Shown here in pieces: positions 2,681 through 60,564 of a stretch of DNA of 64,000 nt; position 1 is the stretch's first letter; every line of letters begins with the position of its first letter. The DNA lies in the NCBI GenBank assembly GCA_016202305.1, contig JACQPB010000034.1, forward strand, positions 27,262 to 91,261, written 5' to 3'. Under the pieces are notes generated by a model, which searched no databases, had not been told where the DNA came from, and saw only the letters and a list, made by a program, of their open reading frames with translations. The stretch is from Candidatus Iainarchaeum sp. (lineage in GTDB: Archaea > Iainarchaeota > Iainarchaeia > Iainarchaeales > Iainarchaeaceae). The position numbers and the translations under genes are program-made.

Positions 2681-3511
2681 TTGGAAGCTGACAAATCCAA
2701 TGCGGGTGGGATGAGCCCGTCAATGATGCTCTCGGCGAGCATACTCATATCCGCGCTCGTTCTCGCGGGTGCGCTCTTCTTCGTGGGAGCCGACATAAGC
2801 AAGCAGATAGGCACGATAAAAATAACCGCGGGTTCCGGCCAGGAAGCAGGTGCGCAGCAGGGTGGCGCGCAGACTGCTGGCACGGCCAACACTGGCGGTT
2901 CAGCCGCACAGAAGCAGGTCACTTTCCAGGGCCTCGTGGAGAGCGCTCTGATAATAGGTGACTCGAATGCGAAGGTCACGGTGCTTGAGTTTTCGGATTT
3001 TTCATGCCCGTTCTGTGCTGCCTCGGCAGGCTTCGGCGGCCAGGATGTGATTGATTACTTGAAGAGCCGCGACCCACAGTGGGAGCCGATAGGCCCAAAA
3101 TTCATCGAAGAGTATGTCAAGACCGGCAAAGTCAAGCTGGCAATCAAGTATTATCCGGGTCATGGTACCGGCCAGCAGGCTCAGCTTGTCTCATGGTGTG
3201 CATACGACCAGAATCCGGATTACTTCGCGAAGTTCCACGACATCGCATACAAGAATCAGGGCGAAGCCAATGATGCAGCCAAGATGAAGGGCTATGCTGT
3301 GCAGGTCGGCGCTGACGCTGCGAAGCTCGACGAGTGCCTGAAATCGAACAAATACGTTTCAAGGCTCGACACCGAAGCCGAGGAAGGGAGCGCCATAGGA
3401 GTCAGCGGCACGCCGTACTATTACATAAACAATGCAAGCACCGTGCTGAAAGGGGCCTATTCATATTCTTATATGAAGCAGGCGATTGACGCGGAACTTG
3501 CGAAACAATAG
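2681..3511 (+). CDS. membrane-anchored DsbA-like thiol:disulfide oxidoreductase (second paralog)
   Basis: TM helix, a Gly/Ala/Gln-rich linker, then a thioredoxin fold with CPFC (SDFSCPFCA) and a DsbA-like C-terminal region. Confidence 0.7.
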   Translation: MEADKSNAGGMSPSMMLSASILISALVLAGALFFVGADISKQIGTIKITAGSGQEAGAQQGGAQTAGTANTGGSAAQKQVTFQGLVESALIIGDSNAKVTVLEFSDFSCPFCAASAGFGGQDVIDYLKSRDPQWEPIGPKFIEEYVKTGKVKLAIKYYPGHGTGQQAQLVSWCAYDQNPDYFAKFHDIAYKNQGEANDAAKMKGYAVQVGADAAKLDECLKSNKYVSRLDTEAEEGSAIGVSGTPYYYINNASTVLKGAYSYSYMKQAIDAELAKQ

Positions 3512-11357: not shown

Positions 11358-12962
11358 TCAGTTGGATTTTATGCCAAGCTCGGTTTGCATAAAATCGCCC
11401 ATATCTTTTCCTGTTGCATATTGCAGGAATTCCTTAAGTGGCTTTGTGCACTTGACATCAGTTAACTCTAGGCTGCAATTGGAAAAATCGAATTCCGGCT
11501 CTGGATTATATACTTTTTTGAAAAATTCATCAGAGAGATAATCAGATTGTTGTAAATGCTTGAAAATACATCTGCCTAAATCATGTCCAACCATAGTTCT
11601 AAAAGGCAGATTCTGGCAACCTGCTGGAATAGGGGCTTCGTTAAACCCAACATCTTGGAATGACCTAAAGCCAGAGTAAATGGCCAGCCCATCAGCAGAG
11701 CCTTCGATTAGCCAACCACTGTCACCTTTGTACTTTTGTACCATGTTTGTTTGGAGTGAATGCGCATATTCGTGGGCAAATTCCTGAACAAGTATTTTTA
11801 CCCCTAAAGTTTTATAGGTTTCTTCGTCCCCGTAGTTGATTGAAACAGAATCACCAAAACCTAGATTGCCTTCAGCACCTAAAACAATCATGATTGTTCT
11901 GGGTCCATAAATTGCAGAAACGTTTCTGTTGAGCCCAGTAATGGCACTATACTTCGACTTTATGTTTTCAGCGTTTTTCTGCACCCCGTCAAAGTCAATT
12001 TTTGAATTTTCAGTTGCAATAAAATATGAAGATAGCGTGGTGCTTTTTTTGACAATCTTATAATTTAGGACGGTCGTCTGATTTGGAAGGAGTTTTGCAT
12101 CTGCAATAGGGGTTTCGTTTGGAATTAAAAACTTGATTTTTTTTGCGCAAACAATGTTTGGAATGCTATTCAGGCTTATTGAATTATTAGGGTCATAAAC
12201 TACTGAGGCGTTTTGAATAAGGTCAACCAGATAATATGTGCCAATTGGTTTTCCTTCAAGCTGTATTTCTAATGCAGATTCCTTGGCCCCTCCAGCGATT
12301 GAAACTGTCGGCGTATCATTTGGGCATTCCGCTCCAATTCTTAGATTAGCAGTTAACAAGCTCATTATAACGTTTGTTTCTTTTTCGAAACAGGTGTTAT
12401 ATGCCTTGAAACACGAGCTGCTTAGACATTCCGCACAAGTTTGTCCGCAGGCAAAATAATTTGGTTGATACCCGTCAAATGTCATAAAATGAAAACAACA
12501 TCTGCCTGAGGTTTGCAATGTGTCCCAAAGGCACACCTGATTTCCAGAGCATAAAACGCCGCCCATTTCATTACAGGCTTGTAAATCGCCATTTTCTTGT
12601 GTTTTTATAACAAGAACAATATTTGAGACCGGTGAAGAAATAAAAACTTCTTTTCCATTTGAAGCAGTTCCCTTGCTCACTTTAATGGCATAATTTCCCG
12701 GCAGCAATTGCATCGCCGCTTTACCATCTTTTCCTGTCAGAGCAATTTGGTCTATCGTGCCGTTTATTTTCATCCAGTTGCCTTGTGCTCCGCTTTCAAA
12801 TGAATAGTTCGAGAAAGCACTCAGGCTAGCGCCCTCAACAGGATTTCCAAACTTATCTACTACCCGAACCTCAACTAGAACCGTTGGGTCATTAATGCAC
12901 CCTGACAAAAAAATAGTAAGTATTAATGCTAAAGTAACAATCGCAATAAACTTCATGAACAA
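11358..12962 (-). CDS. secreted lipoprotein with HExxH zinc-metallopeptidase motif
   Basis: Signal peptide plus lipobox (LTIFLSGC), a Cys-rich middle, and C-terminal FAHEYAHSLQ. Lies in AT-rich DNA. Confidence 0.5.
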   Translation of the reverse strand: MFMKFIAIVTLALILTIFLSGCINDPTVLVEVRVVDKFGNPVEGASLSAFSNYSFESGAQGNWMKINGTIDQIALTGKDGKAAMQLLPGNYAIKVSKGTASNGKEVFISSPVSNIVLVIKTQENGDLQACNEMGGVLCSGNQVCLWDTLQTSGRCCFHFMTFDGYQPNYFACGQTCAECLSSSCFKAYNTCFEKETNVIMSLLTANLRIGAECPNDTPTVSIAGGAKESALEIQLEGKPIGTYYLVDLIQNASVVYDPNNSISLNSIPNIVCAKKIKFLIPNETPIADAKLLPNQTTVLNYKIVKKSTTLSSYFIATENSKIDFDGVQKNAENIKSKYSAITGLNRNVSAIYGPRTIMIVLGAEGNLGFGDSVSINYGDEETYKTLGVKILVQEFAHEYAHSLQTNMVQKYKGDSGWLIEGSADGLAIYSGFRSFQDVGFNEAPIPAGCQNLPFRTMVGHDLGRCIFKHLQQSDYLSDEFFKKVYNPEPEFDFSNCSLELTDVKCTKPLKEFLQYATGKDMGDFMQTELGIKSN

Positions 12963-15109: not shown

Positions 15110-15940
15110 TCAGATTCCGCCCGTCATTATCTGGGGGAAGCCCGGCATCGCGAGCGCGAGCAGGACGCCGAGGAATATGAACGGCCCGAACCTCGGCAGG
15201 TTCCTGTAGACCGCGACTTCAATAATGCCTGCGCCGTAAAGCTTCGCCTTCTCGCTTTCCCCTATGACTGCCTTGAGCCCGAGTCCGGCCTTTTCCTGCA
15301 CCGCCTTCCTCTCCTCTTCGCGCATGAAATCATGTGCAAGTAGCTCGTCGTCCTCGAGCTCGGAAACCCTGATTCTCTTCACGAAGAATTCCTTCCTGAT
15401 GCCTTTCTCAAGCGCCGCGAAAGCGAGTCCGAACAGCATTGGAACGCCCAGTGTGGCTGCGTACTGCGGCGAGATGAAGCCGTAAGAGTACAGCGCGTAA
15501 AAATACGCCGCTATGAAAACAAGCAGCAGCGCGGAGCGCAGGATTCCCTTGGAATTGTATTGCGTGTCAATGCCTTTCCTCGCGTAGCCCGTGACATAAT
15601 ACGCGGAGAAGAACACCACTGCGCAAAGGCCGCCGAGGAACGCGGCCGAAAGGATGAAGAGTCCGCCTCCATAGGAGGGCATGATGAGCGCAATCCCGGT
15701 GTAAAGCTTCACATCGCCCCCGCCGAGCTTGCCTGTGTAGTAGAGCGCGTATCCGAGTCCGAACACGATTGCCCCGAGAGCTATGCCGGTGAATTGCTGC
15801 TCGTATATGTCAGCGAGCAGGCCAAGCGCAATCAGCGGGAGCGTCACCCAGTCATAAATATACCCTGTCTTGAAATCCGTGTAGGCGCCAGCCGCTGACG
15901 CGATAAGGACGGCGGCTTCCCTTAGCAAAATTTCCTGCAT
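15110..15940 (-). CDS. A24-family prepilin/preflagellin peptidase (PibD/FlaK-like)
   Basis: Polytopic membrane protein with catalytic Asp motifs DFKTGYIYD and GGGDVKL. Confidence 0.65.
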   Translation of the reverse strand: MQEILLREAAVLIASAAGAYTDFKTGYIYDWVTLPLIALGLLADIYEQQFTGIALGAIVFGLGYALYYTGKLGGGDVKLYTGIALIMPSYGGGLFILSAAFLGGLCAVVFFSAYYVTGYARKGIDTQYNSKGILRSALLLVFIAAYFYALYSYGFISPQYAATLGVPMLFGLAFAALEKGIRKEFFVKRIRVSELEDDELLAHDFMREEERKAVQEKAGLGLKAVIGESEKAKLYGAGIIEVAVYRNLPRFGPFIFLGVLLALAMPGFPQIMTGGI

Positions 15941-26202: not shown

Positions 26203-26910
26203 TCATCCGGCAGGCGCATATTGCTTCTTCTCGTCATGCGCCTTGTCCTCAGGCTTCGCCTGTGCGGGTTTGCCGGCATGCCCGGGCTTCGCGTGCTCAT
26301 GGGCTTTCGCCTGGCCGTGTCCGTGCTCCGGTGGCGTGCCTTCTTTTCCCGCGGCGGGCTTCTGTGGAGCAACTCCTTGCGGCTTCGCGTCTTTCTGCGC
26401 CTGTGCCGCCTGCCTCTGCTGTTCCGCCTTCGCCCTTGCCTCGACGCGCTTCGCGGCTTCCTCCGAGTATTTCTGCTCCTTGGCTTTCACGGAAGCGTCA
26501 AATGTTGCCTGTGCCGTCTTGGCTTTTTCGAAGAGGTATTTTTCGCCTTTTCCGCTGACGCTCCTGCCTTTCTTCTCTTTCTTGAGCAGGCCTTCCTTTT
26601 CCAGCATCTGCAGGCATGTCCTGATTATCTTTCCCGATGCCTTGCGCTTCTCCTCGGGCTTCACGCCGCGATTTTTCCTGCCGCCATAATAGGTGCGCAG
26701 TGTGCCTGTGCCTGTTCCGCCTTCCTTGTACACCCTATAGAGCACGCTTGCGGCCCTCGTGTAGAACCAGTCCGGGTCGTTGGGCTGCCTTTCGCGGTGC
26801 GCTCCGGTCTTCACGTGCTCCGTGAAAGCCGGCTTCTTGAGCTTCGCCTTGAGGTCCTTCGCGACCTCGCTTATCAGCATTCCCGCGGGAACGTCATAGA
26901 TTCCCATCAA
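26203..26910 (-). CDS. rps19e: 30S ribosomal protein S19e with ~90-aa low-complexity C-terminal extension
   Basis: N-terminal 145 aa are canonical S19e (DVPAGMLISEVAKDL...WFYTRAASVLYRVY...YGG). The remainder is K/A/Q/E-rich with a HGHGQAKAHEHAKPGHAGKP tail. Confidence 0.8.
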   Translation of the reverse strand: MMGIYDVPAGMLISEVAKDLKAKLKKPAFTEHVKTGAHRERQPNDPDWFYTRAASVLYRVYKEGGTGTGTLRTYYGGRKNRGVKPEEKRKASGKIIRTCLQMLEKEGLLKKEKKGRSVSGKGEKYLFEKAKTAQATFDASVKAKEQKYSEEAAKRVEARAKAEQQRQAAQAQKDAKPQGVAPQKPAAGKEGTPPEHGHGQAKAHEHAKPGHAGKPAQAKPEDKAHDEKKQYAPAG

Positions 26911-27072: not shown

Positions 27073-27903
27073 TCATCCGCCTGCCAGGCCCTTGATTTCG
27101 CTGTCGCTCAGGGCGCGGTTCAGGATGATGAGCTCGTCAATCTGTCCGTTGAAATACCTACCATCTACTCGGGGTGGGTCGTCCCATCCACCCGCACCTA
27201 TAGCCATGATTGATGTGCCCGGGTCGTTCCAGATTGTCTTGCCGTCAAGCGCTTCTGGGTGGCTGGCGAGCAGGGTGCCATTGGTATAGGTCTTTGCCGT
27301 TGTGCCGTCATAAGTGCTGGCCACATGATACCATCGGCCTGGCTGCGGGGACCAAGGGTCTGTATAGCACGCTATGTACTCGTTGCCGCAAGGGCCAGTA
27401 CCGCTCGTGTCGGAAGGGTAGAGTTCCAGCCACCACCCTGTGCTATTGTAACCAAATGTCCACCCTCGCCATTTCTGCGAAACCTCCTGCGTGGTTCCGG
27501 AAGGGCTTGCGTTGAATTTTATCCACGCCGCAATTGTTATCTGGCTCATGTTGCTGAATGCAGGAGTAGGATTTACTTTTATGTAACTGCTAGTGCCGTT
27601 AAAGCTTGCCACATTTCCGCGCGTGGTGTCACCTACAATCGTGGCTCCGCCAAAGCCGGCCCCGTTGTTCCCTTTGCCCGATGAGTCGGAATAAGCCGTG
27701 TCGTCCAGCTTCCAGTAGCCAGCACCATTCGTAACCATCAGCTGCTTTACTTGTATCGTGTACAGGCCGCTTTTTGTCTGCCCCGAGCTGGCTTGCGATG
27801 TGCTGAGGAGCAGCACAATCACTATTGAGCCGATTACGACTGCGCCGCCTATGAGGAGCAGGTATTCGAGCGCGCCTTGCCCCTTGTTCATGCTTGATAC
27901 CAT
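27073..27903 (-). CDS. archaeal type IV pilin-like protein with LamG/ConA-like lectin domain
   Basis: Class III signal peptide MNKGQGALEYLLLIGGAVVIGSIVIVLLL (KGQ cleavage motif plus hydrophobic helix), then a ~230-aa laminin-G/ConA-like beta-sandwich. Confidence 0.6.
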   Translation of the reverse strand: MVSSMNKGQGALEYLLLIGGAVVIGSIVIVLLLSTSQASSGQTKSGLYTIQVKQLMVTNGAGYWKLDDTAYSDSSGKGNNGAGFGGATIVGDTTRGNVASFNGTSSYIKVNPTPAFSNMSQITIAAWIKFNASPSGTTQEVSQKWRGWTFGYNSTGWWLELYPSDTSGTGPCGNEYIACYTDPWSPQPGRWYHVASTYDGTTAKTYTNGTLLASHPEALDGKTIWNDPGTSIMAIGAGGWDDPPRVDGRYFNGQIDELIILNRALSDSEIKGLAGG

Positions 27904-27917
27904 ATTCTTCCGCTAAT

Positions 27918-28283
27918 TTATTTGTTTGTATTTGGCTTTCTCCCGGTCTTCCTCTCATGCCCGCACTCCAGGCACTTGACAACGGCCCATGTGGCCGTCC
28001 TTGTTATCTTGGAGTTTCCCTGCCCGAAAAATGCCCCGCATTTTTTGCAGAATTTCGTCTTAAGCGTATCAGGAATCCTTGCGCGCAGTTTTTTTGAGAC
28101 GCCCCGCGCGATTTCGACGTATCTTTTGCTCCTCTCCGGGTGTGCGCCGAATTCATGCTCAGCCAGCTCGAAGAGCCTCCAGATGCGCTCCGTGCCGAGC
28201 TCCTGCATTTTCGCGTGCTTCATTCCAATATTGTGCCGCAAACGGTTAAAAGGGTTGTCGAGGGGGATTTTGCGGTTTCGCAT
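27918..28283 (-). CDS. rnp4: RNase P protein component Rpp21/Rpr2
   Basis: C-terminal zinc ribbon CKKCG...CLECG and a basic N-terminal helix. The start is probably internal, at MKHAKMQELG. Confidence 0.7.
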   Translation of the reverse strand: MRNRKIPLDNPFNRLRHNIGMKHAKMQELGTERIWRLFELAEHEFGAHPERSKRYVEIARGVSKKLRARIPDTLKTKFCKKCGAFFGQGNSKITRTATWAVVKCLECGHERKTGRKPNTNK

Positions 28284-36295: not shown

Positions 36296-39200
36296 TCACA
36301 TCACTGTAGCCGCAAACAGCATGGTTATGGTTATCAGTGCCATCACGGCCAGGTATACGAGCGAGAATATGCTTATCGGCTTGCCGAAGTTTGCGAAGAG
36401 CAGGTAAAGCGTGCCGATTCCGAAAACCACGCCAAGCAGCCAGAGCACGTTAGCTATCACTGAGCTTCTTTTCACTACGTTCTTCATCCCTGTCTTTTCG
36501 AGGTCCTGCCTCACCTGCTGTATCGACTCGGCTATTTCCTCGAGGTCCTCTTCGTTCGGCAGGGATTTCTGCAGGTTCCCGAACCTGTTCAGGATGATTG
36601 TGTTGGTTTCCTGCTTGAGTTTCTGCATTTCCTGTCTTGTGACAAGTATGTTCTGGGTGAGCTGCTGCTGGACCTGCTGGGCCGTTGCCGCATTTTCCTG
36701 CCTCGCGAGTTGCCTTGCCTGCTCAGGCGTGACCCTTTGCAGCTCGGCTATTTCCTTGAGCGACTTCGCGAGCTTGCCTATTTCGGTGCCGGACTTCTGG
36801 GACTCCTCCTTGAGCAACTGCCTCACCTGCTCGTAGGCCGACCTCTGCTGTATGCCGAGCTCTATGACGGACTTTCCGAGGTCTTTCTTGATTTCCTCTA
36901 CCGCGGCCGGGGTTTCCTGCTTCACAATCTGCCTGAGCTGTTCCGGGTTGAGCCTTGGCAGCTGGCTCTTGAGGCCTTCAATCGTGCGCACTGCTTCCTG
37001 TCTCGCGAGCTGCACGGCCTGCTCTTTCTGTTTTTCCATTTCCTGCCTTGTGAGCTGTATTTCCTGCTTGGCCATCTTTTCGACGCTCGAGCGTATGTCC
37101 TGTACGCCTTTCTCGGTTTCCTTTCGTGCTGATTGCAATTCGTCCCTTGTGAGCTTCACGAGCTGTGTCTTCAGCTCTCCTGCGAGGCTGGAATTTTCGC
37201 GCCTCACGAGCTGGAGGAGTTCCGGCTTCTGCTTCTCAATTTCCTGCCTCGTGGCCGCAAGCTGTTCCTGTGCGAGCCTGGAAAGTTGTACTATCTGGGG
37301 CTTCTGTGCCTCGATTTCCCGTTTCATGCTCGCAAGCTCCTCCTTCCCGCTCTTGAGAAGCTGTGTGCTTGCGCTCTTCTGGTTCTCTATTTCCTGTTTG
37401 GTTGTCTGGACGTGTTCCCTGCTGAGCTGGAGCATCTGCGAGAACTGCGTGCGCTGCTTTTCCGCTTCCTGCCTTGCGCCCTGCAGTTGCTCGCCGAGTA
37501 TGCGCATCATCTGCTCTCTGAGGCTCTCCGTCTCCTTCTTTGTCTGCTGGGAGTATTCCTGCGACATCTTAGTTAACTGACCTTTCAGCGATTGCGCGGT
37601 GTTTGCAGATTCGGCCTTCACGAGTTGCGTAAGCTGTGGCTTCTGCCTTTCGAGTTCCATGCGCAGTTCAGCGAGTTCCGTCTGCGTAAGCTTCACGATT
37701 TCGCCCTTCATTTCCTCCGCGGTTTTTGCGGATTCCTGCTTCACTGCCTGCCTTATGCGCTCAGGAACTTCCTTCTGCTGGGTGTTGAATTCCTTAAGCG
37801 ATTTTGTAAGCTCATTCTGGACTTCCTTCACGAGTGCCGGTGTCTCGTCCTTCACCAGCAGCCTGAGCTGCTCATGGTTGAGTTTTGGCATGTTGCGCTT
37901 CATTTCCTCGATTGTGCGGGCCGCTTCCTGCCTCGTAATCTGCGCAGTCTGCGATTTTTGCTTTTCCATTTCCTGTCTTGCGGTATCTATCTCCTGGCGC
38001 GTAAGCTTCATGAGGCTGTTCCTGAGCTCCTCGGAAGCCTCGCTGGTTTCCTGTTTTGCGGCCGTCAGTTCTTCCTGTACAAATTTCATTATCTGGTTGC
38101 GGGTGTCCTGGGTGATTCTTGAGGCTTCCTGCTTCGAGAGCTGTGCGAGCAGCGGCTTCTGCCTCTCGATTTCCTGCCTTAGCTGCGTGAGCTCTTCCTG
38201 GGTAGTCTTCACTATGCTGTTGCGCAGCCCCTGGCTCGTGGATGCTGCCTCCTGCTTCATGAATTGCGTGAGCAGCGGCTTTTGCCTTTCCAATTCCTGC
38301 TTCAGCTGCTGCATCTGGTCCTGGTTTGTCTTGGAGAGCTGACTCTTGAGCTCCTGTACAGCTGCCGTGGCTTCCTGCCTGAGCATCTGCGCTATCTGCG
38401 GCTTCTGCTTTTCCATTTCCTGCCTTAGCAGCTGTATGTCCTGTGCCGCCTTGGCTACATTGCTCTTGAACTCAGATGGGTTGCCGAATTCGCGCCTCAC
38501 TATCTGCAGCACCTGTTCGGCGTTAAGCTTCTGCGAGCTCATTTCCTTTGCGGCATTCAGCAGTTGTTCCTTGGCCTCTTCGTTTGCCTTGGCCGTTTCA
38601 TTGCGCAGGCGCTCCACTTCGTGCATTGCTGTGGAAATTTCCTGCCTGAGCTCCTTCACTGGTGCGCTGGTCTCCTGCTTCACCAGTTGCGCTATCTGTG
38701 GCTTCTGCCTCTCGATTTCCTGCCTCAGGGTGGTTATTTCCTGCGAGGCTTTGAGCGCCTGTGCCCTGAGCTCCTGCGCGCTCGCGGCGTACTCGCGCCT
38801 TACAATCTGGGTTATCTGTTCGGGGTTCAGTTTCTGGTTCCTTATGTCCTCGACTGCGCGCGCGAACTGCTGCTTTGTTTCCTCTGCCGCCCTCAGGCTT
38901 TCCTGCCTGATTTGCTGGGCATCCATGAGCGCCTTCGCGACCTGCTGGCGCATTTCCTGCGCTGGCCCGATTTCGCCTTTTATGTGCTGGAACTGCTCTT
39001 CAGCCGCTTTTGTGAACTGCTTCCTGATGTCCTCGGTCGCATACTTCGTTTCCTGCTTGAGTTGCTCCGCCACTGCCATGGCCTCTTGCTTTATGGTCTG
39101 CTCGAACTCAGGCTTCTGCTTCTCTATTTCCTGCTTTATCTGCTTCCTCAGCTGGCTTGCCTGGTCGAGCGCGGTTTCCATCATGCGCTGCTTCAGCTCC

Positions 39201-40057
39201 TCTGCGGTGCTTTCCGACTCGCGCTTCACAATCGCCTCTATTTCCGGCTTCTGCTTTTCGGTTTCCTGTTTTGCAATCTGCTTTATCTCGAGCACGAGTT
39301 CCAGCAGCTGGTCCTGGTTTGTCTTGGCCTGGCCGTTGAGGTCCCTTATAGTCTTGGCGAGCTGCTGTCTCAGGTCCTCGGTTGCCGACATGGCTTCTTC
39401 CTTGACCTGCTGCGTGACGTTCGGCAGCTCTTTCTGTATCTCCATCTTGAGTGTGCGCTGTATGTCTATGACCTGGTCCTGCGCGAGCTTGCTTTGCACG
39501 CTGACGTCCTTGAGGGACCTCTTGAGTTCGAGCACCTGGTTCTGGAGCGACTTGTTCTGGTCGGAGGTGCTTTTTTGGTAGTCCTTGATGTTGGTGATGA
39601 AGTTCTTGGTTATCTGGTGCCTGAGGTCCTCGGTGATGTTGATTGCCTCTTCCTTGACCTGCTGGACGAGGTTCGGCATCTCCTTCTCTAGCTCGCTCCT
39701 CACCGTGTCGTTGATTTGCTGTATCTGGTCCTCGGATGGGAGTCCCGGGCCGGTTTCCTTGATGTTGCCGATTATCGTCTTGGTTATCTGGTGCCTGAGG
39801 TCCTGTGTGGCGTTGGAGGCCTCTTCTTTTATCGCCTGGGAAATAGCCGGCCTCTGGCTCTCTATCTGGTCCTCGACTATCTTCTTGAGTTCGGCCTTGA
39901 GGAGGTTGAAGGTGTCTGCCTGCGCGAGAAGCAGGAGTTTCTTGGCCTTGTCCATGCTTACTCCGAGGTCGCGGAGCGTGCTGAGTATTTTATCCTCGCT
40001 TTCACCGTCGCGCACCATCTGGTCAATAGTGTCTATGATGCTAGGTTCCCTGGCCAT
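36296..40057 (-). CDS. giant repetitive coiled-coil protein with C-terminal membrane anchor (two TM helices)
   Basis: 1253 aa, almost entirely heptad-rich Q/E/K/L sequence. It has at least 15 copies of a ~30-aa unit, QE(I/M)E(K/R)QKPxxxQxxKQE...TxxLxxQ. The C-terminus has two hydrophobic helices (VIANVLWLLGVVFGIGTLYLLF and ISIFSLVYLAVMALITITMLF). Confidence 0.7.
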   Translation of the reverse strand: MAREPSIIDTIDQMVRDGESEDKILSTLRDLGVSMDKAKKLLLLAQADTFNLLKAELKKIVEDQIESQRPAISQAIKEEASNATQDLRHQITKTIIGNIKETGPGLPSEDQIQQINDTVRSELEKEMPNLVQQVKEEAINITEDLRHQITKNFITNIKDYQKSTSDQNKSLQNQVLELKRSLKDVSVQSKLAQDQVIDIQRTLKMEIQKELPNVTQQVKEEAMSATEDLRQQLAKTIRDLNGQAKTNQDQLLELVLEIKQIAKQETEKQKPEIEAIVKRESESTAEELKQRMMETALDQASQLRKQIKQEIEKQKPEFEQTIKQEAMAVAEQLKQETKYATEDIRKQFTKAAEEQFQHIKGEIGPAQEMRQQVAKALMDAQQIRQESLRAAEETKQQFARAVEDIRNQKLNPEQITQIVRREYAASAQELRAQALKASQEITTLRQEIERQKPQIAQLVKQETSAPVKELRQEISTAMHEVERLRNETAKANEEAKEQLLNAAKEMSSQKLNAEQVLQIVRREFGNPSEFKSNVAKAAQDIQLLRQEMEKQKPQIAQMLRQEATAAVQELKSQLSKTNQDQMQQLKQELERQKPLLTQFMKQEAASTSQGLRNSIVKTTQEELTQLRQEIERQKPLLAQLSKQEASRITQDTRNQIMKFVQEELTAAKQETSEASEELRNSLMKLTRQEIDTARQEMEKQKSQTAQITRQEAARTIEEMKRNMPKLNHEQLRLLVKDETPALVKEVQNELTKSLKEFNTQQKEVPERIRQAVKQESAKTAEEMKGEIVKLTQTELAELRMELERQKPQLTQLVKAESANTAQSLKGQLTKMSQEYSQQTKKETESLREQMMRILGEQLQGARQEAEKQRTQFSQMLQLSREHVQTTKQEIENQKSASTQLLKSGKEELASMKREIEAQKPQIVQLSRLAQEQLAATRQEIEKQKPELLQLVRRENSSLAGELKTQLVKLTRDELQSARKETEKGVQDIRSSVEKMAKQEIQLTRQEMEKQKEQAVQLARQEAVRTIEGLKSQLPRLNPEQLRQIVKQETPAAVEEIKKDLGKSVIELGIQQRSAYEQVRQLLKEESQKSGTEIGKLAKSLKEIAELQRVTPEQARQLARQENAATAQQVQQQLTQNILVTRQEMQKLKQETNTIILNRFGNLQKSLPNEEDLEEIAESIQQVRQDLEKTGMKNVVKRSSVIANVLWLLGVVFGIGTLYLLFANFGKPISIFSLVYLAVMALITITMLFAATVM
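36900..39300. repeat. dispersed in-frame direct repeats (~35-bp core GGCTTCTGCYTYTCSATTTCCTGCC and derivatives) inside the giant gene
   Basis: At least 10 copies visible on the + strand at irregular 70-450 bp spacing. Each encodes the QEIE(R/K)QKP motif. Confidence 0.7.
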
Positions 40058-48949: not shown

Positions 48950-50518
48950 TTGTTGGCTTTGGTGTTGTTGTTGTCTGAAAAACAAGGGGAGGAAATCGGC
49001 ACAGTGATAAGTTCGCCCGAGGGCCCTTCGCCGAACAGTGTGGACCTCATAGTGAATGCAGGCATACTCCATCGCGGCCAGTTCGTTGAAATGGATTATG
49101 CGCAGGGCACGCTCGTCTGCCTCGTGAACAATGTCCTGAAGAGCAACAAGTACTTCGAGCGCTTCGAATCCGTGAAAGAGTACGAAAGCTCCGGCAGGAA
49201 GCTCTTCGAGCAGTTCCCGACGCACGAGTGGGAGTACCTCGTCGCAATGACAAGGCCGCTTGGCGTGTTCAGTGAGGGGCTCGTGAAGCGCTCCACTTTC
49301 CCGCCATCACCCGGGACGAAAGTGAGGGTCGCGGCACGCGAGACGCTTGAAAAGTTCCTGGGCTTGGATTCGGAGAAAGGCCTGCACCTCGGGGAGATTG
49401 AGCACCACAATACTCTGGTGAAAATAAATTTGTCACGCCTTTTGCAAAAGCACCTTGCCATTTTGGCGATGTCCGGCGCGGGAAAATCGGTTTTGTCCGC
49501 AGTGATTATTGAGGAACTGCTCCAGAGGAAAAAAGAAAACGGCCGTATCGGAGTCGTGGTGATGGATGCGCACGGCGAGTACCGTGCATTCGCCGAGCCG
49601 GTGCGCGACGGGAAAAGCGTTGACTTTTCATCAAAGACAAAGTTTGTGCGCGCAACCGATGTGCAGATTGGCGTCCCAAAGCTCTCCATCGGGCTGTTCG
49701 CGGCTCTCATTCCCGGCCTCTCCGCGCCGCAGAAGCGCGACCTTGCGAGGGTGATTGACAAGCTCAGGGCGGAGATGAAGGGTGGCCTCGGCCCTTTCGA
49801 TTTCAACGCGGTGAAATCCGAAGTTTTGAATGATGAGGACATAAAGGGTGCGACAAAGGATGCGCTCATCGGCTGGATAATGTCGCTCGAGCAATTGGGC
49901 CTCTTCGGCAAGACCGACAATCCCGGCATAGCCGACCTCGTAAGGCCGGGCCAGCTTACAGTGATTGACCTCAGCGACGTGATTGAGCTGAAGAAGAAGC
50001 AGATTATCGTGGCTTACTATGCGCGCAAGCTCTTTGATGAGCGAAGGCGCAACAAGGTTCCGCCCTTCACGCTCATATGCGAGGAAGCCCACCAGCTGGC
50101 CCCTGAAAATGTATCAAAGGAGGGTTCGATAAGCAAGCATGTGATAGAAACAATAGCGCGCGAAGGGAGGAAGTTCGGCGCGGGCATATGCCTGATTTCG
50201 CAGAGGCCCGTGAACCTGTCCACTACGGCTTTGTCGCAATGCGGCACCCATATTATCCTGCGTGTCACCAACCCTTATGACCTTGACCATATCAAGCAGA
50301 CGAGCGAGGGCATAGACCAGCGCACCCTTGAGATGATAACTTCGCTGCGCACCGGCGAGGGCATAATTGTAGGGGAAGCCGTGAATTACCCCGTCTTCTT
50401 CAAAGTGAGGAAGAAGCTTTCGCAGGACTCGGGGCGCGAGGCCACGCTTGAGAAGGCCGCTGTCGATTTCGAGGAGTCGCGTGACGCTTCAAGGAAGGAC
50501 ATCGAGGACCTTCTCTGA
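48950..50518 (+). CDS. herA: HerA DNA helicase/translocase (FtsK-HerA superfamily)
   Basis: HAS-barrel N-terminus, Walker A MSGAGKSV, Walker B VVVMDAHGE and ICEEAH. Putative TTG start. Confidence 0.8.
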   Translation: MLALVLLLSEKQGEEIGTVISSPEGPSPNSVDLIVNAGILHRGQFVEMDYAQGTLVCLVNNVLKSNKYFERFESVKEYESSGRKLFEQFPTHEWEYLVAMTRPLGVFSEGLVKRSTFPPSPGTKVRVAARETLEKFLGLDSEKGLHLGEIEHHNTLVKINLSRLLQKHLAILAMSGAGKSVLSAVIIEELLQRKKENGRIGVVVMDAHGEYRAFAEPVRDGKSVDFSSKTKFVRATDVQIGVPKLSIGLFAALIPGLSAPQKRDLARVIDKLRAEMKGGLGPFDFNAVKSEVLNDEDIKGATKDALIGWIMSLEQLGLFGKTDNPGIADLVRPGQLTVIDLSDVIELKKKQIIVAYYARKLFDERRRNKVPPFTLICEEAHQLAPENVSKEGSISKHVIETIAREGRKFGAGICLISQRPVNLSTTALSQCGTHIILRVTNPYDLDHIKQTSEGIDQRTLEMITSLRTGEGIIVGEAVNYPVFFKVRKKLSQDSGREATLEKAAVDFEESRDASRKDIEDLL

Positions 50519-51302: not shown

Positions 51303-52799
51303 ATGCTCCCAAGCACGCTGTACCTTTCACGCGTATCATACTCTTCGGAGAAGCGGCAGATAATAGTCGAGTTTTCAAACCGCTGTGAGAGGGTTTCCCA
51401 GAGGCACCAGTTCTTCCCCAAATTTTTTTTCCAGCTAGGCGCTATTCCAGAGGCGGATTTCAGGGCTGTAGTGGCAGGTTTTGCCCCGCAGAAGTTCAAG
51501 GTGACTGTGAATGACGGAGTGGCATCCGTTTTTGCGGCAAGCTTCTCCGACTTGAAGGCTCTGAACAATTTCCTTGGAAAGTGCTTTGGCTCCAGGTGCA
51601 ATATAGTGGAGCCGGAGAGGCAGTTCCTCATGGAGCGTGGCTGGAATTATTTCGATTCTTTCTCCAGGGATTCAGAGGGCGTGCACAGGCTGGAGAGGTT
51701 CGATTTCCCCGATGTCAATCTCCCGTTCCTTTCAGCCGCTTTCAAGGAAACCGTCACAGAACTGCTCCGGAGCAATGATGCGCTTGCAAACGACCTGCTT
51801 TCAAAGGCCGCGCTGTCCCGCATTCTCCGTGTTCCTCTAATGGGGCGCGAGGCTGGCGACCCTCCTGTGGAAATTTTGCTCGAAAACATTTTTTTCACGG
51901 CTGGCATGCCTCTGCCTGTAGGTGCATCGTCGCCTTCCGGTCGTATTAATTTTTTTCCGGGAAAGGGCGAGATTGACTTTTCACGCCTGGTTGCCATGCT
52001 GTCGTCGAGGCCGTTCAGCAACATAGGGTTTGAAACAATGAACTGCCAGTGCTGCAGGCCTTCTTCCCCGGATGCGCGGAACATTCTTCCTTCCGGTCTC
52101 GTAAAAGTCAGGTTCCTGCGTGAGGGCTTTTACTTCAGTCCTTTTTCCATGGTTTGGGCGCACGAGTTCCATGAATCAATGCCTTTCAGGGAACTGCGTG
52201 AATCGCGGATGAGGGAGTACTGCCATCAGGTTCCGCCTGCGGGGCCTTTCAGCAGGGGCTCCGAAGGATTCGTTATGCTGATTGACGCTGTTTCCCTGGA
52301 GAGGCAGGGTTTTGTGGAAGTGCTCCGGGACTACTCTCCCGCATGGTTTTGCACGGTCAATGAAGGCTCCCTTTCCCGCGAGGTGAATTCTCTCCTGCGT
52401 TGCCTGTCATCGCTTGAATCTCTCATACATTCCGAGGGCGCGAAGGTGGCCGCTTCCAACGGGCTTTTCTTTTCGCAGGCAATCGGGAGCAGCCCGGAGT
52501 TTTTCTATCGCAAGGCGCTCAAGGGCGTGGTTTCCGCGCTGCTTTCCTCGCTGCCTGCGCAGCTCATAACTCCAGGTGGCAGGTTTTTCTCGAAAAATGT
52601 CGCGATGGCGCTGGAAGCGCTTAATGGCGGCATCGCCCGTGATTTCGAGGATTCGGTCATAAACGGCTGTGAAAGGGTGATTTTCCCGTGTTTTTCCAGG
52701 GCCGTCGTGGATAAGGCCTCGATAATGACGCTCGCAAAGCGGTTTTCCGAGTTATATAATGTGGAAATGCCATTGTTGGGCATCAGGTCAAATTCATAG
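51303..52799 (+). CDS. hypothetical protein (498 aa, no recognisable motif)
   Basis: Long ORF at normal GC with no Walker, HExxH or phosphoesterase motifs. Co-oriented upstream of rpoK–rps17e. Confidence 0.4.
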   Translation: MLPSTLYLSRVSYSSEKRQIIVEFSNRCERVSQRHQFFPKFFFQLGAIPEADFRAVVAGFAPQKFKVTVNDGVASVFAASFSDLKALNNFLGKCFGSRCNIVEPERQFLMERGWNYFDSFSRDSEGVHRLERFDFPDVNLPFLSAAFKETVTELLRSNDALANDLLSKAALSRILRVPLMGREAGDPPVEILLENIFFTAGMPLPVGASSPSGRINFFPGKGEIDFSRLVAMLSSRPFSNIGFETMNCQCCRPSSPDARNILPSGLVKVRFLREGFYFSPFSMVWAHEFHESMPFRELRESRMREYCHQVPPAGPFSRGSEGFVMLIDAVSLERQGFVEVLRDYSPAWFCTVNEGSLSREVNSLLRCLSSLESLIHSEGAKVAASNGLFFSQAIGSSPEFFYRKALKGVVSALLSSLPAQLITPGGRFFSKNVAMALEALNGGIARDFEDSVINGCERVIFPCFSRAVVDKASIMTLAKRFSELYNVEMPLLGIRSNS

Positions 52800-58986: not shown

Positions 58987-60564
58987 GTGTTCAGGATGGG
59001 TGATTTTTTCCCAGAGAAAAAAGGCAGGCTGGTAGATTCATACGCTAGGGTTTCCATATATGAGGGGTTCCCGTTTTTCTACTATGAGGTTTCAGGCCAT
59101 GCATTCTCGGCGGAGGAAGCGGCGGTTTACGATGCCCTCGTTTCGATAATTTCCGGCAGGATGGGCTTTGATGAGGCGCAGGGCTCTAAGGGCAAGTCTC
59201 TCCCGAAGGCGTTTGTGGAGGGTTTCAGGGAGAAAATACTGAAGCCAATCACTTATGGCCAGGCGCTGGAATTCATACTGCCATCCGAGGATTACTCGGC
59301 CATTTCTTCATCGTTTCTTGCGCTTGTGTCGGAGCACCTGCATTTCGTGAAGAATCCCGCGCTTCTCGCGGAGCTGGTTTTCGGGGATTCGATAGGGTAC
59401 GGCAAAATATCCGCGTTGATGCTTGACGAGAATCTCGAGGAAATAATGGTCAACGGTTATGAAAGGGACATATTCATCTACCATCGCAAGTACGGCCACT
59501 GCAAGACGAACCTCAGGTTTTTGTCACGCAAGGACCTGGATTCCCTGGTGCAGAAAATCGCGAGGACGGTTGGCAAGAAGCTCGACGCCGACTCGCCTCT
59601 GCTCGATGCGCGCCTTCCCGACGGCAACCGTGCAAACGCCACTTATACTTTCGTGACTCCATTCGGTCCGAGCCTCACTATACGGAAATTCACCGGCGTG
59701 CCATTGAGCATAGTGGACCTCATATCCAACAACACGCTTTCCAGCGAAGTTGCGGCATTTCTCTGGGTGATGGTGGAGGGTTTGGGCGTCGAGCCCATGA
59801 ACATCATAGTCACTGGGGGTTCCAGCTCCGGGAAGACAACTACCCTTAATGCCCTCGCATCCTTCATACGTTTTCCGGAGCGCATAGTTTCCATAGAGGA
59901 CACTCTTGAGCTTCAGCTCCGCGGGCGCGAGAACTGGGTGCAGATGGAGGCAAGACCGAGGATAGGCGTGCAGGAAGGCGTGTATATGGATGACCTGCTC
60001 AGGAACGCCATGAGGATGAGGCCTGACAGGCTAATAGTGGGGGAGGTGCGCGGTTCCGAGGCTCAGGTGATGTTTGTCGCAATGGATACCGGCCATAAAG
60101 GGTGTCTTGGGACTCTGCATGGCAACTCCGCGAAAGAGATGCTGCTTCGCCTGAAGTCCGAGCCCATGTCCGTGCCGGAGCCGCTGCTCTCTCTCCTTAA
60201 TCTCGTGGTCGTCCAGTCCCGCCTCAGGATAAACGGCAAGGGCATCGTCAGGCGCGTCATTTCAGTGACCGAGGTAAGCTCCATGGAAAGCAGGCCGTTG
60301 TTAAGCAATGCCTACGAGTGGAATGGGAAAGAGGATGCGCTTTCAAGGACCAGTGTGCCAATAGCCCTGCTTGACCTGCTTTCCCAGAAGACGCTCCGCA
60401 CGAAAAAGGAAATAGAGCAGGAAATCGGCGTGAGAAGGCGCGTATTGGAATGGATGCTCAGGAATGGCCTTACTGCACAGCCTGAAGTGGAGCTCCTGAT
60501 TCAGCAGTATTATTACAATCCCGACGAAATACTTGCAAAAGTCCTCTCAGACACCACTTCATAG
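58987..60564 (+). CDS. type II/IV secretion-system ATPase (FlaI/VirB11/GspE family)
   Basis: Walker A VTGGSSSGKTTT, an Asp box, Walker B/His box (GEVRGSEA, TLHGNS) and an N-terminal FlaI-like domain. Confidence 0.75.
   Translation: MFRMGDFFPEKKGRLVDSYARVSIYEGFPFFYYEVSGHAFSAEEAAVYDALVSIISGRMGFDEAQGSKGKSLPKAFVEGFREKILKPITYGQALEFILPSEDYSAISSSFLALVSEHLHFVKNPALLAELVFGDSIGYGKISALMLDENLEEIMVNGYERDIFIYHRKYGHCKTNLRFLSRKDLDSLVQKIARTVGKKLDADSPLLDARLPDGNRANATYTFVTPFGPSLTIRKFTGVPLSIVDLISNNTLSSEVAAFLWVMVEGLGVEPMNIIVTGGSSSGKTTTLNALASFIRFPERIVSIEDTLELQLRGRENWVQMEARPRIGVQEGVYMDDLLRNAMRMRPDRLIVGEVRGSEAQVMFVAMDTGHKGCLGTLHGNSAKEMLLRLKSEPMSVPEPLLSLLNLVVVQSRLRINGKGIVRRVISVTEVSSMESRPLLSNAYEWNGKEDALSRTSVPIALLDLLSQKTLRTKKEIEQEIGVRRRVLEWMLRNGLTAQPEVELLIQQYYYNPDEILAKVLSDTTS

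What the first reader, a model, noticed from the sequence alone, without database searches (positions are those of the whole stretch)
27073..27903. Pilin-like adhesin: class III signal peptide fused to a LamG/ConA-like lectin domain, with pilus machinery parts scattered
The protein begins with an archaeal type-IV-pilin signal (KGQ↓GALEYLLLIGG...) and continues into a laminin-G/concanavalin-like domain, a carbohydrate- or protein-binding module. A PibD/FlaK-type prepilin peptidase (15110-15940) and a standalone FlaI/VirB11-family ATPase (58987-60564) are in the same window. No FlaJ/TadC platform gene is. In a putative episymbiont this is a candidate host-attachment pilus tip.
Basis: partly seen in the sequence, partly recalled or inferred. 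Interest (0 to 1): 0.6.

Follow-up and report, generated by a model that had tools for sequence, protein, structure and literature searches.

The report
Archaeal pilin with lectin-like domain
This gene in a small uncultured (DPANN, Iainarchaeum/Diapherotrites) archaeon encodes a pilus-subunit-type N-terminus fused to a sugar-binding-type domain. It is the archaeal counterpart of the "modular pilins" known in bacteria, so it is a sensible candidate adhesin but not a new kind of system.

Summary
ORF 27073-27903(-), more likely starting at 27891 (272 aa), matches Pfam Class_IIIsignal (31.4 bits, cutoff 23.7) and Laminin_G_3 (85 bits). An AlphaFold model gives an N-terminal helix plus a ConA/LamG beta-sandwich that resembles carbohydrate-binding modules.

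The window also holds an A24 peptidase and a T2SSE ATPase, and no platform gene. However, these two genes are conserved housekeeping-linked paralogues. They are not remnants of a scattered pilus locus. Related Iainarchaeota carry a compact Epd/Tad-like operon: ATPase, two single-domain T2SSF genes, tiny QGALEY pilins and a long A24 peptidase. In the one relative where both loci are held, the operon pilin has almost the same N-terminal helix as the large modular pilins; a second relative shows weaker similarity.

The gene sits in a conserved slot between Rpr2 and S19e. Relatives hold one to three pilins there, with different modules (LamG, DUF1080-like, CBM4_9, unknown).

Best reading: a minor modular pilin that displays a glycan-binding module on an Epd/Tad-like pilus. 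Tip location, host attachment and the presence of the operon in this genome remain unproven. It is a new member of a known kind, of moderate interest.

The parts
27073..27891 (-). Coding sequence of the modular pilin (272 aa from the second ATG; the mechanical ORF starts at 27903)
   Evidence: ORF list. Identical to NCBI MBI4210455.1, 'class III signal peptide-containing protein'. Pfam PF04021 + PF13385.
27880..27891 (-). Leader peptide MNKG, predicted to be removed by an A24 prepilin peptidase (cleavage G|Q)
   Evidence: Inference from the DUF361 pilin rule: leader ends in Gly, +1 Gln, +5 Glu (PMC3875500). Leaders of 3-6 residues dominate in 306 related ORFs.
27796..27879 (-). Mature N-terminal hydrophobic helix QGALEYLLLIGGAVVIGSIVIVLLLSTS, the pilin polymerisation and membrane segment. 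It contains the Flp-like motif G|xxxxEY.
   Evidence: PF04021 match. Invariant QGALEYLLLIGG. AlphaFold helix at residues 6-31. In relatives the same helix is found in short operon-encoded pilins.
27091..27600 (-). LamG / concanavalin-A-like beta-sandwich module (residues 98-267 of the 272-aa form). It has a low-confidence Trp/Tyr-rich insertion at residues ~131-178.
   Evidence: PF13385, 85 bits. AlphaFold model pTM 0.70, core pLDDT 80-90. Foldseek best hits are AbnA domain 4 (5hon), the tetanus toxin Hc lectin-like domain and trans-sialidase lectin domains, E 1e-10 to 1e-8. PDB sequence hits 4qvs and 5hon.
27918..28283 (-). RNase P subunit Rpr2/Rpp21 gene, the upstream border of the conserved pilin slot. 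It ends 14-26 nt before the pilin start, on the same strand.
   Evidence: Pfam PF04032. Orthologues lie next to pilin genes in L003, L006, L007, L008, L011 and L034.
26203..26910 (-). Ribosomal protein S19e gene, the downstream border of the conserved pilin slot
   Evidence: Pfam PF01090. Orthologues lie downstream of pilin genes in the same six loci.
15110..15940 (-). Short (276 aa) A24 aspartyl prepilin peptidase paralogue, a possible but unproven processing enzyme
   Evidence: PF01478, 49.6 bits. D22 and GGGD motifs. Its 55%-identical orthologue sits after SRP54 in L034. No NCBIfam or PDB match.
58987..60564 (+). Standalone TadA/FlaI-family secretion ATPase paralogue (NCBI form is 522 aa). 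Its link to the pilin is uncertain.
   Evidence: PF00437, 141 bits. Best NCBIfam hit is FlaI at 283 bits, below the 550 cutoff. Orthologues are 60-67% identical and always sit between the CCA-adding enzyme and TYW3.

Best explanation
The gene encodes a modular minor pilin of an Epd/Tad-like type IV pilus.

Proposed mechanism, step by step:
1. The preprotein is inserted in the membrane (inferred).
2. An A24 aspartyl peptidase removes the 4-residue leader at NKG|Q (inferred by homology).
3. The mature N-terminal helix QGALEYLLLIGG..., carrying Glu+5 and Tyr+6 as in Flp pilins, lets the protein enter the helical core of a filament (inferred). That filament is built mainly from a short pilin with the same helix (inferred).
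4. The C-terminal LamG/ConA-like beta-sandwich is thereby displayed outside the filament (inferred).
5. The displayed module binds a glycan, or less likely a protein, on a surface or another cell (inferred).

The gene lies in a housekeeping cluster between Rpr2 and S19e and is probably expressed with it (inferred). Related genomes hold one to three pilins in the same slot with different binding modules. The lineage therefore appears to vary what its pilus sticks to by swapping modules on a constant pilin helix.

Shown: the domain architecture, the fold class, the conservation of the N-terminus, the operon in relatives, and the slot and its variability.
Inferred: cleavage, incorporation into the filament, glycan binding, and presence of the operon in this genome.
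For: - Architecture: PF04021 + PF13385, both above Pfam cutoffs.
- Model: helix at residues 6-31, helix at 40-55, then a beta-sandwich. The fold is closest to carbohydrate-binding ConA-like modules.
- The same architecture recurs at ~30% identity in other metagenomic and DPANN proteins: P0003, P0004, P0007, P0008, and L003-L007, L012, L055.
- 34 of 78 related loci hold ATPase + TadB-like + TadC-like + long A24. All 34 have a QGALEY-type pilin of 54-184 aa between TadC and the A24. The two platform genes each have one T2SSF domain, which is the Epd/Tad hallmark (PMC6668835).
- Within one genome (JBDRLP010000027.1) the 88-aa operon pilin begins QGALEYLLLIGGAVLVAVIVITLLLSIA. The three modular pilins begin QGALEYLLLIGGAVLVAVIVITLILSIA.
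- In L004 a LamG pilin lies 5 kb from the operon. It resembles the 55-aa operon pilin over the first ~40 residues.
- The slot Rpr2-[pilin x1-3]-S19e is conserved in six other genomes. The flanking proteins are 52-69% identical, but the pilin C-domains are ~30% identical or unrelated.
- Of 42 large QGALEY-type proteins, 9 carry LamG, 2 PF06439, 1 CBM4_9, 1 CBM96, 1 Big_5 and 1 an esterase.
- Precedent: bacterial modular pilins, including PF13385 modules (PMC8179133). S. sanguinis PilC has a lectin module that binds glycans (PMC9934059).
Against: - No platform gene or operon-type ATPase is in the window.
- A search with a relative's TadB-like protein listed 120 hits down to 52% identity, and none came from this 131,087-bp contig. 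The operon is therefore not demonstrated in this genome.
- The only indirect support for the operon is the following. The second pilin P0024 (MBI4210525) lies 31 proteins after the ATPase (MBI4210494) and is convergent with ThrRS. That is the position and gene count expected if a ~17-gene operon lies between them, as in JBDRLP and L004.
- There is no experimental evidence of cleavage, filament incorporation or ligand.
- One family member carries an esterase module. This suggests the N-terminus may serve more generally for surface display.
- The model is only moderately confident (mean pLDDT 68). The putative binding loops, residues 131-178, are unmodelled.
Confidence: 0.6

Rival explanations
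1. A bindosome-like surface protein. The class III N-terminus is processed and used only to anchor or export a glycan-binding protein at the cell surface, as with Sulfolobus sugar-binding proteins. The protein is not part of an extended pilus. Its role would be capture of polysaccharides for nutrition rather than adhesion.
For: - Large class III proteins of this lineage carry carbohydrate-binding modules and, in one case, an esterase.
- Most of them are encoded away from the pilus operon: 22 loci have none within ±10 kb.
- The window ATPase gives a generic sub-threshold hit to the bindosome ATPase BasE, 138 bits against a cutoff of 1000.
- Class III signals on non-pilin binding proteins are an established archaeal precedent (references cited in PMC3875500).
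Against: - The mature N-terminus keeps Glu+5 and Tyr+6.
- It is nearly identical to that of the short operon pilin of the same genome. This is expected for co-polymerising subunits and is not needed for a mere anchor.
- My recollection, not tested here, is that Sulfolobus binding proteins lack Glu+5.
- No ABC transporter genes are adjacent to the gene.
Confidence: 0.2
2. One reading: a tip-located adhesin that attaches an episymbiotic cell to its host.
For: - Bulky modular pilins are argued to fit best at pilus tips (PMC8179133 and PMC9934059).
- A LamG domain is predicted at the tip of haloarchaeal Tat-fimbriae, in TafC (PMC11821415).
- The pilin diverges fast relative to its neighbours (~30% against 52-69% identity). 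This is compatible with partner-specific recognition.
Against: - Glu+5 is retained, so the protein is not marked as the first (capping) subunit. In PMC9934059 the capping PilA lacks Glu5.
- No host, and no symbiotic lifestyle, is shown for this organism by any result here.
- The binding modules resemble polysaccharide-binding modules of glycosidases, which fits environmental glycans equally well.
Confidence: 0.15
3. An ordinary Sec-secreted or N-terminally anchored LamG protein whose N-terminus only looks like a class III signal.
For: The N-terminus is a short charged stretch followed by a hydrophobic helix, which in isolation also resembles a signal anchor. No signal-peptide predictor was available.
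Against: - The PF04021 match is above the gathering threshold.
- A 12-residue string is invariant across 100 related ORFs.
- The same motif is present in tiny pilins that sit between T2SSF genes and an A24 peptidase in 34 operons.
- The Gly-1/Gln+1/Glu+5 rule is met.
Confidence: 0.03

Closest known systems
Bacterial modular type IV pilins, especially Streptococcus sanguinis PilC (class III signal + ConA-like lectin module) and the IPR012902-PF13385 architecture (PMC9934059, PMC8179133)
   Same: A short pilin moiety with a class III signal and Glu+5 is fused to a ConA/LamG-type module. PF13385 is one of the commonest modules in bacterial modular pilins. The predicted role is glycan-mediated adhesion displayed by the pilus.
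   Different: This protein has the archaeal PF04021/DUF361-type signal (Gln+1) rather than the bacterial N-methylation motif; no PF07963 hit was reported. The pilin moiety is essentially helix-only, like Flp. The presumed machine is Epd/Tad-like, not T4aP/Com-like. The gene is embedded in a ribosomal/RNase P cluster.
Methanococcus maripaludis Epd pilins (DUF361, EppA-processed), including the large pilin-like proteins MMP0600, MMP0601 and MMP0709 (PMC3875500)
   Same: They share the PF04021 signal, Gly-1/Gln+1/Glu+5, a mixture of tiny (~55-75 aa) and large (200-300 aa) pilin-like proteins, pilin genes dispersed around the chromosome, and two A24 peptidases in one genome.
   Different: The present family also has Tyr+6, the Flp motif that M. 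maripaludis pilins lack. It carries recognisable binding modules. No experimental data exist for it.
Epd-like / Tad (Flp) pilus systems (PMC6668835)
   Same: Relatives carry an ATPase, two single-T2SSF-domain platform genes, very short pilins and an A24 peptidase in one operon.
   Different: That operon is not in this window and is not demonstrated in this genome. There is no secretin, as expected for archaea.
TafC of Haloarcula hispanica Tat-fimbriae (PMC11821415)
   Same: It is an archaeal filament subunit with a C-terminal laminin-G-like domain, predicted to point outward at the filament end. There is weak sequence similarity in the LamG part (NCBIfam NF052521, E 5e-4).
   Different: It uses an unrelated assembly principle: Tat export and donor-strand exchange. 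The score is 19 bits against a cutoff of 410, so this protein is not a member of that family.
[quoted passage not shown]
   Same: They combine a class III signal with a carbohydrate-binding protein, are processed by an A24 peptidase, and depend on a T4P-like ATPase/platform pair.
   Different: Those are ABC-transporter substrate-binding proteins next to transporter genes. Here the module is a LamG lectin-type fold without transporter genes, and the N-terminus matches a true short pilin.

Membership tests
Archaeal class III signal peptide / DUF361 pilins (PF04021) | Match to PF04021 above the gathering score | tested here: met
   31.4 bits against a cutoff of 23.7. 39 of 42 related large proteins also match.
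Archaeal class III signal peptide / DUF361 pilins (PF04021) | Short leader ending in Gly or Ala, Gln at +1, Glu at +5, then ~20 hydrophobic residues | tested here: met
   The sequence is MNKG|QGALEYLLLIGGAVVIGSIVIVLLL. The rule is taken from PMC3875500.
Archaeal class III signal peptide / DUF361 pilins (PF04021) | Cleavage by an A24 prepilin peptidase (EppA/PibD type) | not testable with these tools
   A catalytically plausible A24 gene is in the window. Relatives also have a long operon-encoded A24. Which enzyme acts, if any, needs an assay.
Type IV pilin (structural subunit of a filament) | Incorporation into a filament assembled by an ATPase + T2SSF platform | not testable with these tools
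   Support is indirect only: the N-terminal helix is nearly identical to that of the operon-encoded short pilin in relatives.
Type IV pilin (structural subunit of a filament) | Genomic linkage to the ATPase/platform genes | tested here: not met
   In the window the neighbours are Rpr2 and S19e, and no T2SSF gene lies within 64 kb. Linkage is seen in relative L004, where a LamG pilin lies 5 kb from the operon. Linkage is not obligatory for archaeal pilins (PMC3875500).
LamG / ConA-like lectin-glucanase superfamily (PF13385) | Profile match and beta-sandwich jelly-roll fold | tested here: met
   85.1 bits against a cutoff of 27.6. AlphaFold beta-sandwich. Foldseek probability 1.00 to ConA-like modules.
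LamG / ConA-like lectin-glucanase superfamily (PF13385) | Carbohydrate (or protein) ligand binding | not testable with these tools
   The nearest structures are carbohydrate-binding (5hon, TeNT Hc, trans-sialidase lectin domain). The candidate loops are modelled at pLDDT below 50.
Bacterial modular pilins as defined by Raynaud et al. 2021 (IPR012902 + extra module) | N-terminal pilin signal plus a C-terminal module not specific to pilus biology | tested here: met
   PF04021 + PF13385.
Bacterial modular pilins as defined by Raynaud et al. 2021 (IPR012902 + extra module) | Bacterial prepilin N-methylation motif (IPR012902 / PF07963) | tested here: not met
   No such family was reported at E<=1 in the Pfam scan. 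The signal is of the archaeal type.
Flp pilins (Tad system) | Flp motif G|xxxxEY followed by a hydrophobic stretch | tested here: met
   G|QGALEY is read directly from the sequence.
Flp pilins (Tad system) | Very short mature protein (about 50-80 aa) | tested here: not met
   The mature protein is 268 aa. The short form exists as separate operon genes in relatives.
Epd/Tad-like pilus system | ATPase + two single-T2SSF-domain platform genes + A24 peptidase + short pilins in one locus | tested here: not met
   Absent from the window. Present in 34 of 78 related loci. Presence elsewhere in this genome is unresolved.
Archaellum motor ATPase FlaI (for 58987-60564) | NCBIfam NF058587 above cutoff, and archaellum gene neighbourhood | tested here: not met
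   282.9 bits against a cutoff of 550. The neighbours are the CCA-adding enzyme, LigT and TYW3.
TafC fimbrial protein (NF052521) | Equivalog score at or above 410 bits | tested here: not met
   19.3 bits, covering the LamG part only.

The most novel reading that the evidence does not exclude
Iainarchaeota (Diapherotrites) use one Epd/Tad-like pilus as a display scaffold for an exchangeable repertoire of modules. The modules include LamG, DUF1080-like, CBM4_9, CBM96 and even an esterase. Each is grafted onto a copy of the major pilin's N-terminal helix. The genes are kept in conserved housekeeping slots (Rpr2-S19e, next to ThrRS), so they are constitutively expressed. Module swapping in these slots would set host or substrate specificity. 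The conserved standalone second ATPase could be a second motor for the same machine, for example for retraction.
Probability: 0.3. Interest if true: 0.6.

Novelty: new member of a known kind. Interest (0 to 1): 0.4.

Why it matters
DPANN archaea are thought to depend on contact with other cells, but the molecules that make that contact are largely unknown. This protein and its relatives give concrete, clonable candidates. Each has a constant pilin helix and a variable, lectin-type head, encoded at a conserved and easily located genomic position. That makes specificity directly testable with recombinant modules on glycan arrays or host envelopes.

It also extends the 'modular pilin' principle from bacteria to the archaeal Epd/Tad-like pili. 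The literature I could search describes no such archaeal pilins (the library is limited). In itself the protein is an expected combination of two common domains, and it is already annotated as a class III signal peptide protein.

Tried and rejected
- Rest of the 131-kb contig. The look-up of encoding contigs returned only 1.4-2.6 kb Logan contigs for P0001 and P0024, and nothing for the last window gene.
- Own genome in GTDB. The genome-contig scan did not contain this genome.
- Platform gene of this genome. I searched with a relative's TadB-like protein. Among the 120 hits listed (>=52% identity), none came from a 131,087-bp contig.
- P0151. This hit came from a 131,109-bp contig and looked promising, but it proved to be a different organism from the Rifle aquifer.
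- Accession numbers from the cluster look-up. These gave only a gene-count argument for the operon.
- Profile search of 1.84 billion representatives with five LamG pilins. It returned 355,743 hits led by giant multi-LamG proteins. It is uninformative about the pilin+LamG architecture (the first job was lost).
- PDB and NCBIfam searches with the short A24 peptidase. Both gave no match, so its subtype (FlaK, PibD or EppA) is unassigned.
- Window ATPase as the pilus-operon ATPase displaced from its platform. Rejected: orthologues of both coexist on single contigs.
- A catalytic GH16-like role for the ConA-like domain. Rejected: no ExDxxE-type motif is visible in the sequence. This was checked by eye only, so the evidence is weak.
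- Szabo et al. 2007 could not be read. The cleavage rule is cited from PMC3875500 instead.
Full report
**1. The observation**

The minus-strand ORF 27073-27903 (276 aa) is real. Pfam places a Class_IIIsignal domain (PF04021) at residues 6-30, with 31.4 bits against a gathering score of 23.7. It places a Laminin_G_3 domain (PF13385) at residues 102-271, with 85.1 bits against 27.6.

The database copy of the protein is P0001 = MBI4210455.1, from a 131,087-bp contig of a Candidatus Diapherotrites/Iainarchaeum MAG. It starts at the second ATG (27891; MNKGQG..., 272 aa) and is already named 'class III signal peptide-containing protein'. Homologues have leaders of mostly 3-6 residues, so I take 27891 as the start.

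An A/T-rich element (AAATAAATTA) overlaps the stop codon of the upstream Rpr2 gene. It is centred about 27 nt before this ATG. This is read directly and carries low weight.

**2. The signal and cleavage site**

The string QGALEYLLLIGG is invariant in seven aligned proteins. It heads 100 of 306 class-III-type ORFs in the related loci I collected.

DUF361/PF04021 pilins of Methanococcus maripaludis have leaders ending in Gly, with Gln at +1 and Glu at +5. They are processed by the peptidase EppA (PMC3875500).

**3. The C-terminal module**

An AlphaFold2 model built on a 24-sequence alignment has pTM 0.70 and mean pLDDT 68. It shows a helix at residues 6-31, a second helix at 40-55, and a beta-sandwich whose core has pLDDT 80-90. 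An unmodelled Trp/Tyr-rich insertion spans residues 131-178.

Foldseek against the PDB finds ConA-like modules with probability 1.00:
- domain 4 of the arabinanase AbnA (5hon);
- the lectin-like half of tetanus toxin Hc;
- trans-sialidase lectin domains.

Sequence search of the PDB agrees (4qvs, 5hon, pappalysin LamG). The fold class is therefore shown. The ligand is not.

**4.

15110-15940(-) is a Peptidase_A24 with both catalytic motifs, D22 and GGGD. 58987-60564(+) is a T2SSE ATPase. Its best NCBIfam hit is FlaI at 283 bits, well below the 550 cutoff.

No T2SSF/FlaJ/TadC gene is in the window. phmmer and tblastn with relatives' platform proteins find nothing. The polytopic ORFs are an EamA transporter, an M48 peptidase and a VTT/DedA protein.

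**5. What relatives show**

A scan of GTDB species genomes for [KR][AG]QGALEYL gave 164 confirmed pilin-like stretches in 78 loci. Nearly all are from Iainarchaeum/Diapherotrites and some Micrarchaeota MAGs.

Thirty-four of these loci carry a compact operon. In order it holds:
- a T2SSE ATPase;
- a TadB-like gene;
- a TadC-like gene;
- two to four tiny pilins;
- a long (~375 aa) A24 peptidase;
- further pilin-like genes.

ThrRS usually lies immediately upstream of the operon. Pfam confirms one T2SSF domain in each platform gene and an Arc_PepC domain in the long peptidase. Two single-domain platform genes plus very short pilins are the signature of Epd-like/Tad systems (PMC6668835). All 34 operons include a QGALEY-type pilin between the TadC-like gene and the peptidase.

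**6. The window's ATPase and peptidase are paralogues, not the operon's**

The window ATPase has orthologues of ~522 aa at 60-67% identity. Those examined lie between the CCA-adding enzyme and TYW3, as in the window. It is only 41-51% identical to operon ATPases.

Contig JBDRLP010000027.1 (149,730 bp) carries four things together:
- the pilin slot and a 275-aa A24 that is 55% identical to the window's (L034);
- the standalone ATPase (P0030, L081);
- about 20 kb further on, the full operon (L025).

These are shown. Matching contig lengths between searches indicate at least nine genomes with both the standalone ATPase and a TadB-like gene on one contig. 'Scattered machinery' is therefore the wrong picture. 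The lineage has a dedicated operon plus a second ATPase and a second peptidase, both conserved in housekeeping contexts.

**7. Is the operon in this genome?**

This is unresolved. A search with the JBDRLP TadB-like protein listed 120 hits down to 52% identity, and none was from the 131,087-bp contig.

Indirect evidence favours presence. A second pilin of this genome, P0024 (MBI4210525), lies on the same contig 31 proteins after the ATPase (MBI4210494). It is convergent with the 3' end of ThrRS. That is the layout in L004, where a large pilin is convergent with ThrRS and is followed by the operon.

The gene count also fits. In JBDRLP, 12 syntenic genes plus 17 operon genes separate the standalone ATPase from ThrRS. 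With the extra LigT in the window, that gives 30 intervening proteins, as observed. This is suggestive, not proof.

**8. Why I read the protein as a true pilin**

In JBDRLP the 88-aa operon pilin and the three large pilins of the slot share the mature N-terminus QGALEYLLLIGGAVLVAVIVIT(L/I)LLSIA almost letter for letter.

In L004 the LamG pilin lies 5 kb from the operon. It resembles the 55-aa operon pilin through about residue 40.

Retention of Glu+5 and of the exact core helix is what co-polymerising subunits need. A mere membrane anchor would not be so constrained.

**9. The slot**

The window region 15-45 kb is syntenic with L003, L006, L007, L008, L011 and L034. In all six, pilin genes lie between Rpr2 and S19e; in L003 a second copy precedes Rpr2.

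| Locus | Content of the slot |
|---|---|
| window, L006, L007 | one LamG pilin each |
| L003 | two LamG pilins |
| L034 | three pilins: PF06439 (DUF1080-like, also ConA-type), CBM_4_9, no Pfam match |
| L008, L011 | one and two pilins without Pfam matches |

Flanking proteins are 52-69% identical to the window's. The pilin is about 30% identical, or unrelated beyond the helix.

Of 42 large QGALEY-type proteins, 39 match PF04021. Nine carry Laminin_G_3. Others carry PF06439, CBM_4_9, CBM96, Big_5 or an alpha/beta-hydrolase esterase.

**10. Mechanism and rivals**

Most likely (about 0.6), this is a minor modular pilin displaying a glycan-binding LamG head on an Epd/Tad-like pilus.

The main rival (about 0.2) is bindosome-like surface display without filament incorporation. 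It is supported by the esterase-bearing relative and by the dispersed gene locations.

Glu+5 is kept, whereas capping pilins such as S. sanguinis PilA lack it (PMC9934059).

An ordinary Sec signal is very unlikely (about 0.03).

**11. Comparison with known systems**

The closest functional analogues are bacterial modular pilins. PF13385 is among the common grafted modules there (PMC8179133), and S. sanguinis PilC's ConA-like module binds glycans (PMC9934059).

The closest homologous family is the DUF361/Epd pilins of M. maripaludis. That family also includes dispersed genes and 200-300-aa members (PMC3875500).

TafC of haloarchaeal Tat-fimbriae is an independent archaeal case of a LamG domain at a filament end (PMC11821415). 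This protein is not a TafC (19 bits against 410).

My literature searches found no description of archaeal class III + lectin modular pilins, within a limited library.

**12. Verdict**

This is a new member of a known kind: a modular pilin of the archaeal Epd/Tad type.

Interest is 0.4. The domain combination is expected and already annotated. However, three features give a useful handle on DPANN surface recognition: the conserved variable slot, the shared helix with the operon pilin, and the repertoire of binding modules.

Noticed in passing
window 58987-60564 (+); L081-L083 10001-11569: A ~522-aa TadA/FlaI-type ATPase is conserved as a standalone gene between the CCA-adding enzyme and TYW3 (plus LigT and ELP3 nearby, all tRNA-related). 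It coexists with the operon ATPase on the same contigs in several genomes. Its partner and role (second motor, retraction, or something unrelated to pili) are unknown.
   Followed up: partly
window 15110-15940 (-); L034 19916-20743: The lineage has two A24 peptidases. The short one (275-276 aa) is encoded after SRP54 in a housekeeping block. The long one (~375 aa, with an Arc_PepC domain) is inside the pilus operon. This recalls the FlaK/EppA division of labour in Methanococcus, but no archaellum genes were seen.
   Followed up: partly
L025 4279-7704; L084 6686-9994; L081 1-1560: Relatives' operon ATPases (~1,100 aa) and a HerA helicase carry inteins with LAGLIDADG domains. The window's ATPase and HerA (48950-50518) are intein-free.
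   Followed up: no
L001 147-863 (P0024, MBI4210525), same contig as the window but outside it: This is a second large pilin of the same genome (238 aa). It has the same N-terminus and an unassigned C-terminal domain, and it is convergent with ThrRS. In relatives the pilus operon begins at this position.
   Followed up: partly
window 36296-40057 (-): A 1,253-aa ORF with no Pfam match and two predicted C-terminal transmembrane segments. Only short parts are similar to proteins in relatives (L003, L006). It may be a large surface or membrane protein.
   Followed up: no
window 1901-2581 (+) and 2681-3511 (+): Two adjacent membrane-anchored DsbA-like thioredoxin proteins suggest extracytoplasmic disulfide formation. 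The pilin's LamG insertion has two cysteines (GPCGNEYIAC).
   Followed up: no
window 51303-52799 (+); L081 2823-4319: A 498-aa protein without any Pfam match, conserved in position (after HerA and the Na/Ca exchanger or VTT gene) in relatives.
   Followed up: no
window 11358-12962 (-): A 534-aa protein with a lipobox-like N-terminus (LSGC) and a weak CarboxypepD_reg match. It is a possible surface lipoprotein.
   Followed up: no
L084 18113-20236; L086 16387-18231: A ~700-aa VWA-domain protein is encoded a few genes downstream of the pilus operon in a Rifle-aquifer relative. It may be another adhesin linked to the same machine.
   Followed up: no
L082, L083 (contig ends): Two independent assemblies of a close relative end 4-5 kb after the asparagine synthase gene. 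In JBDRLP the pilus operon starts at that point. The repeated pilin 5' ends may break assemblies there, which could explain why the operon is hard to find in MAGs.
   Followed up: no
L028, L033, L044 (labelled Thaumarchaeota) and L048 (labelled Bacteroidetes): Contigs carrying QGALEY-type pilins and Iainarchaeota-like operon genes are deposited under unrelated taxon names. These are probably binning errors.
   Followed up: no
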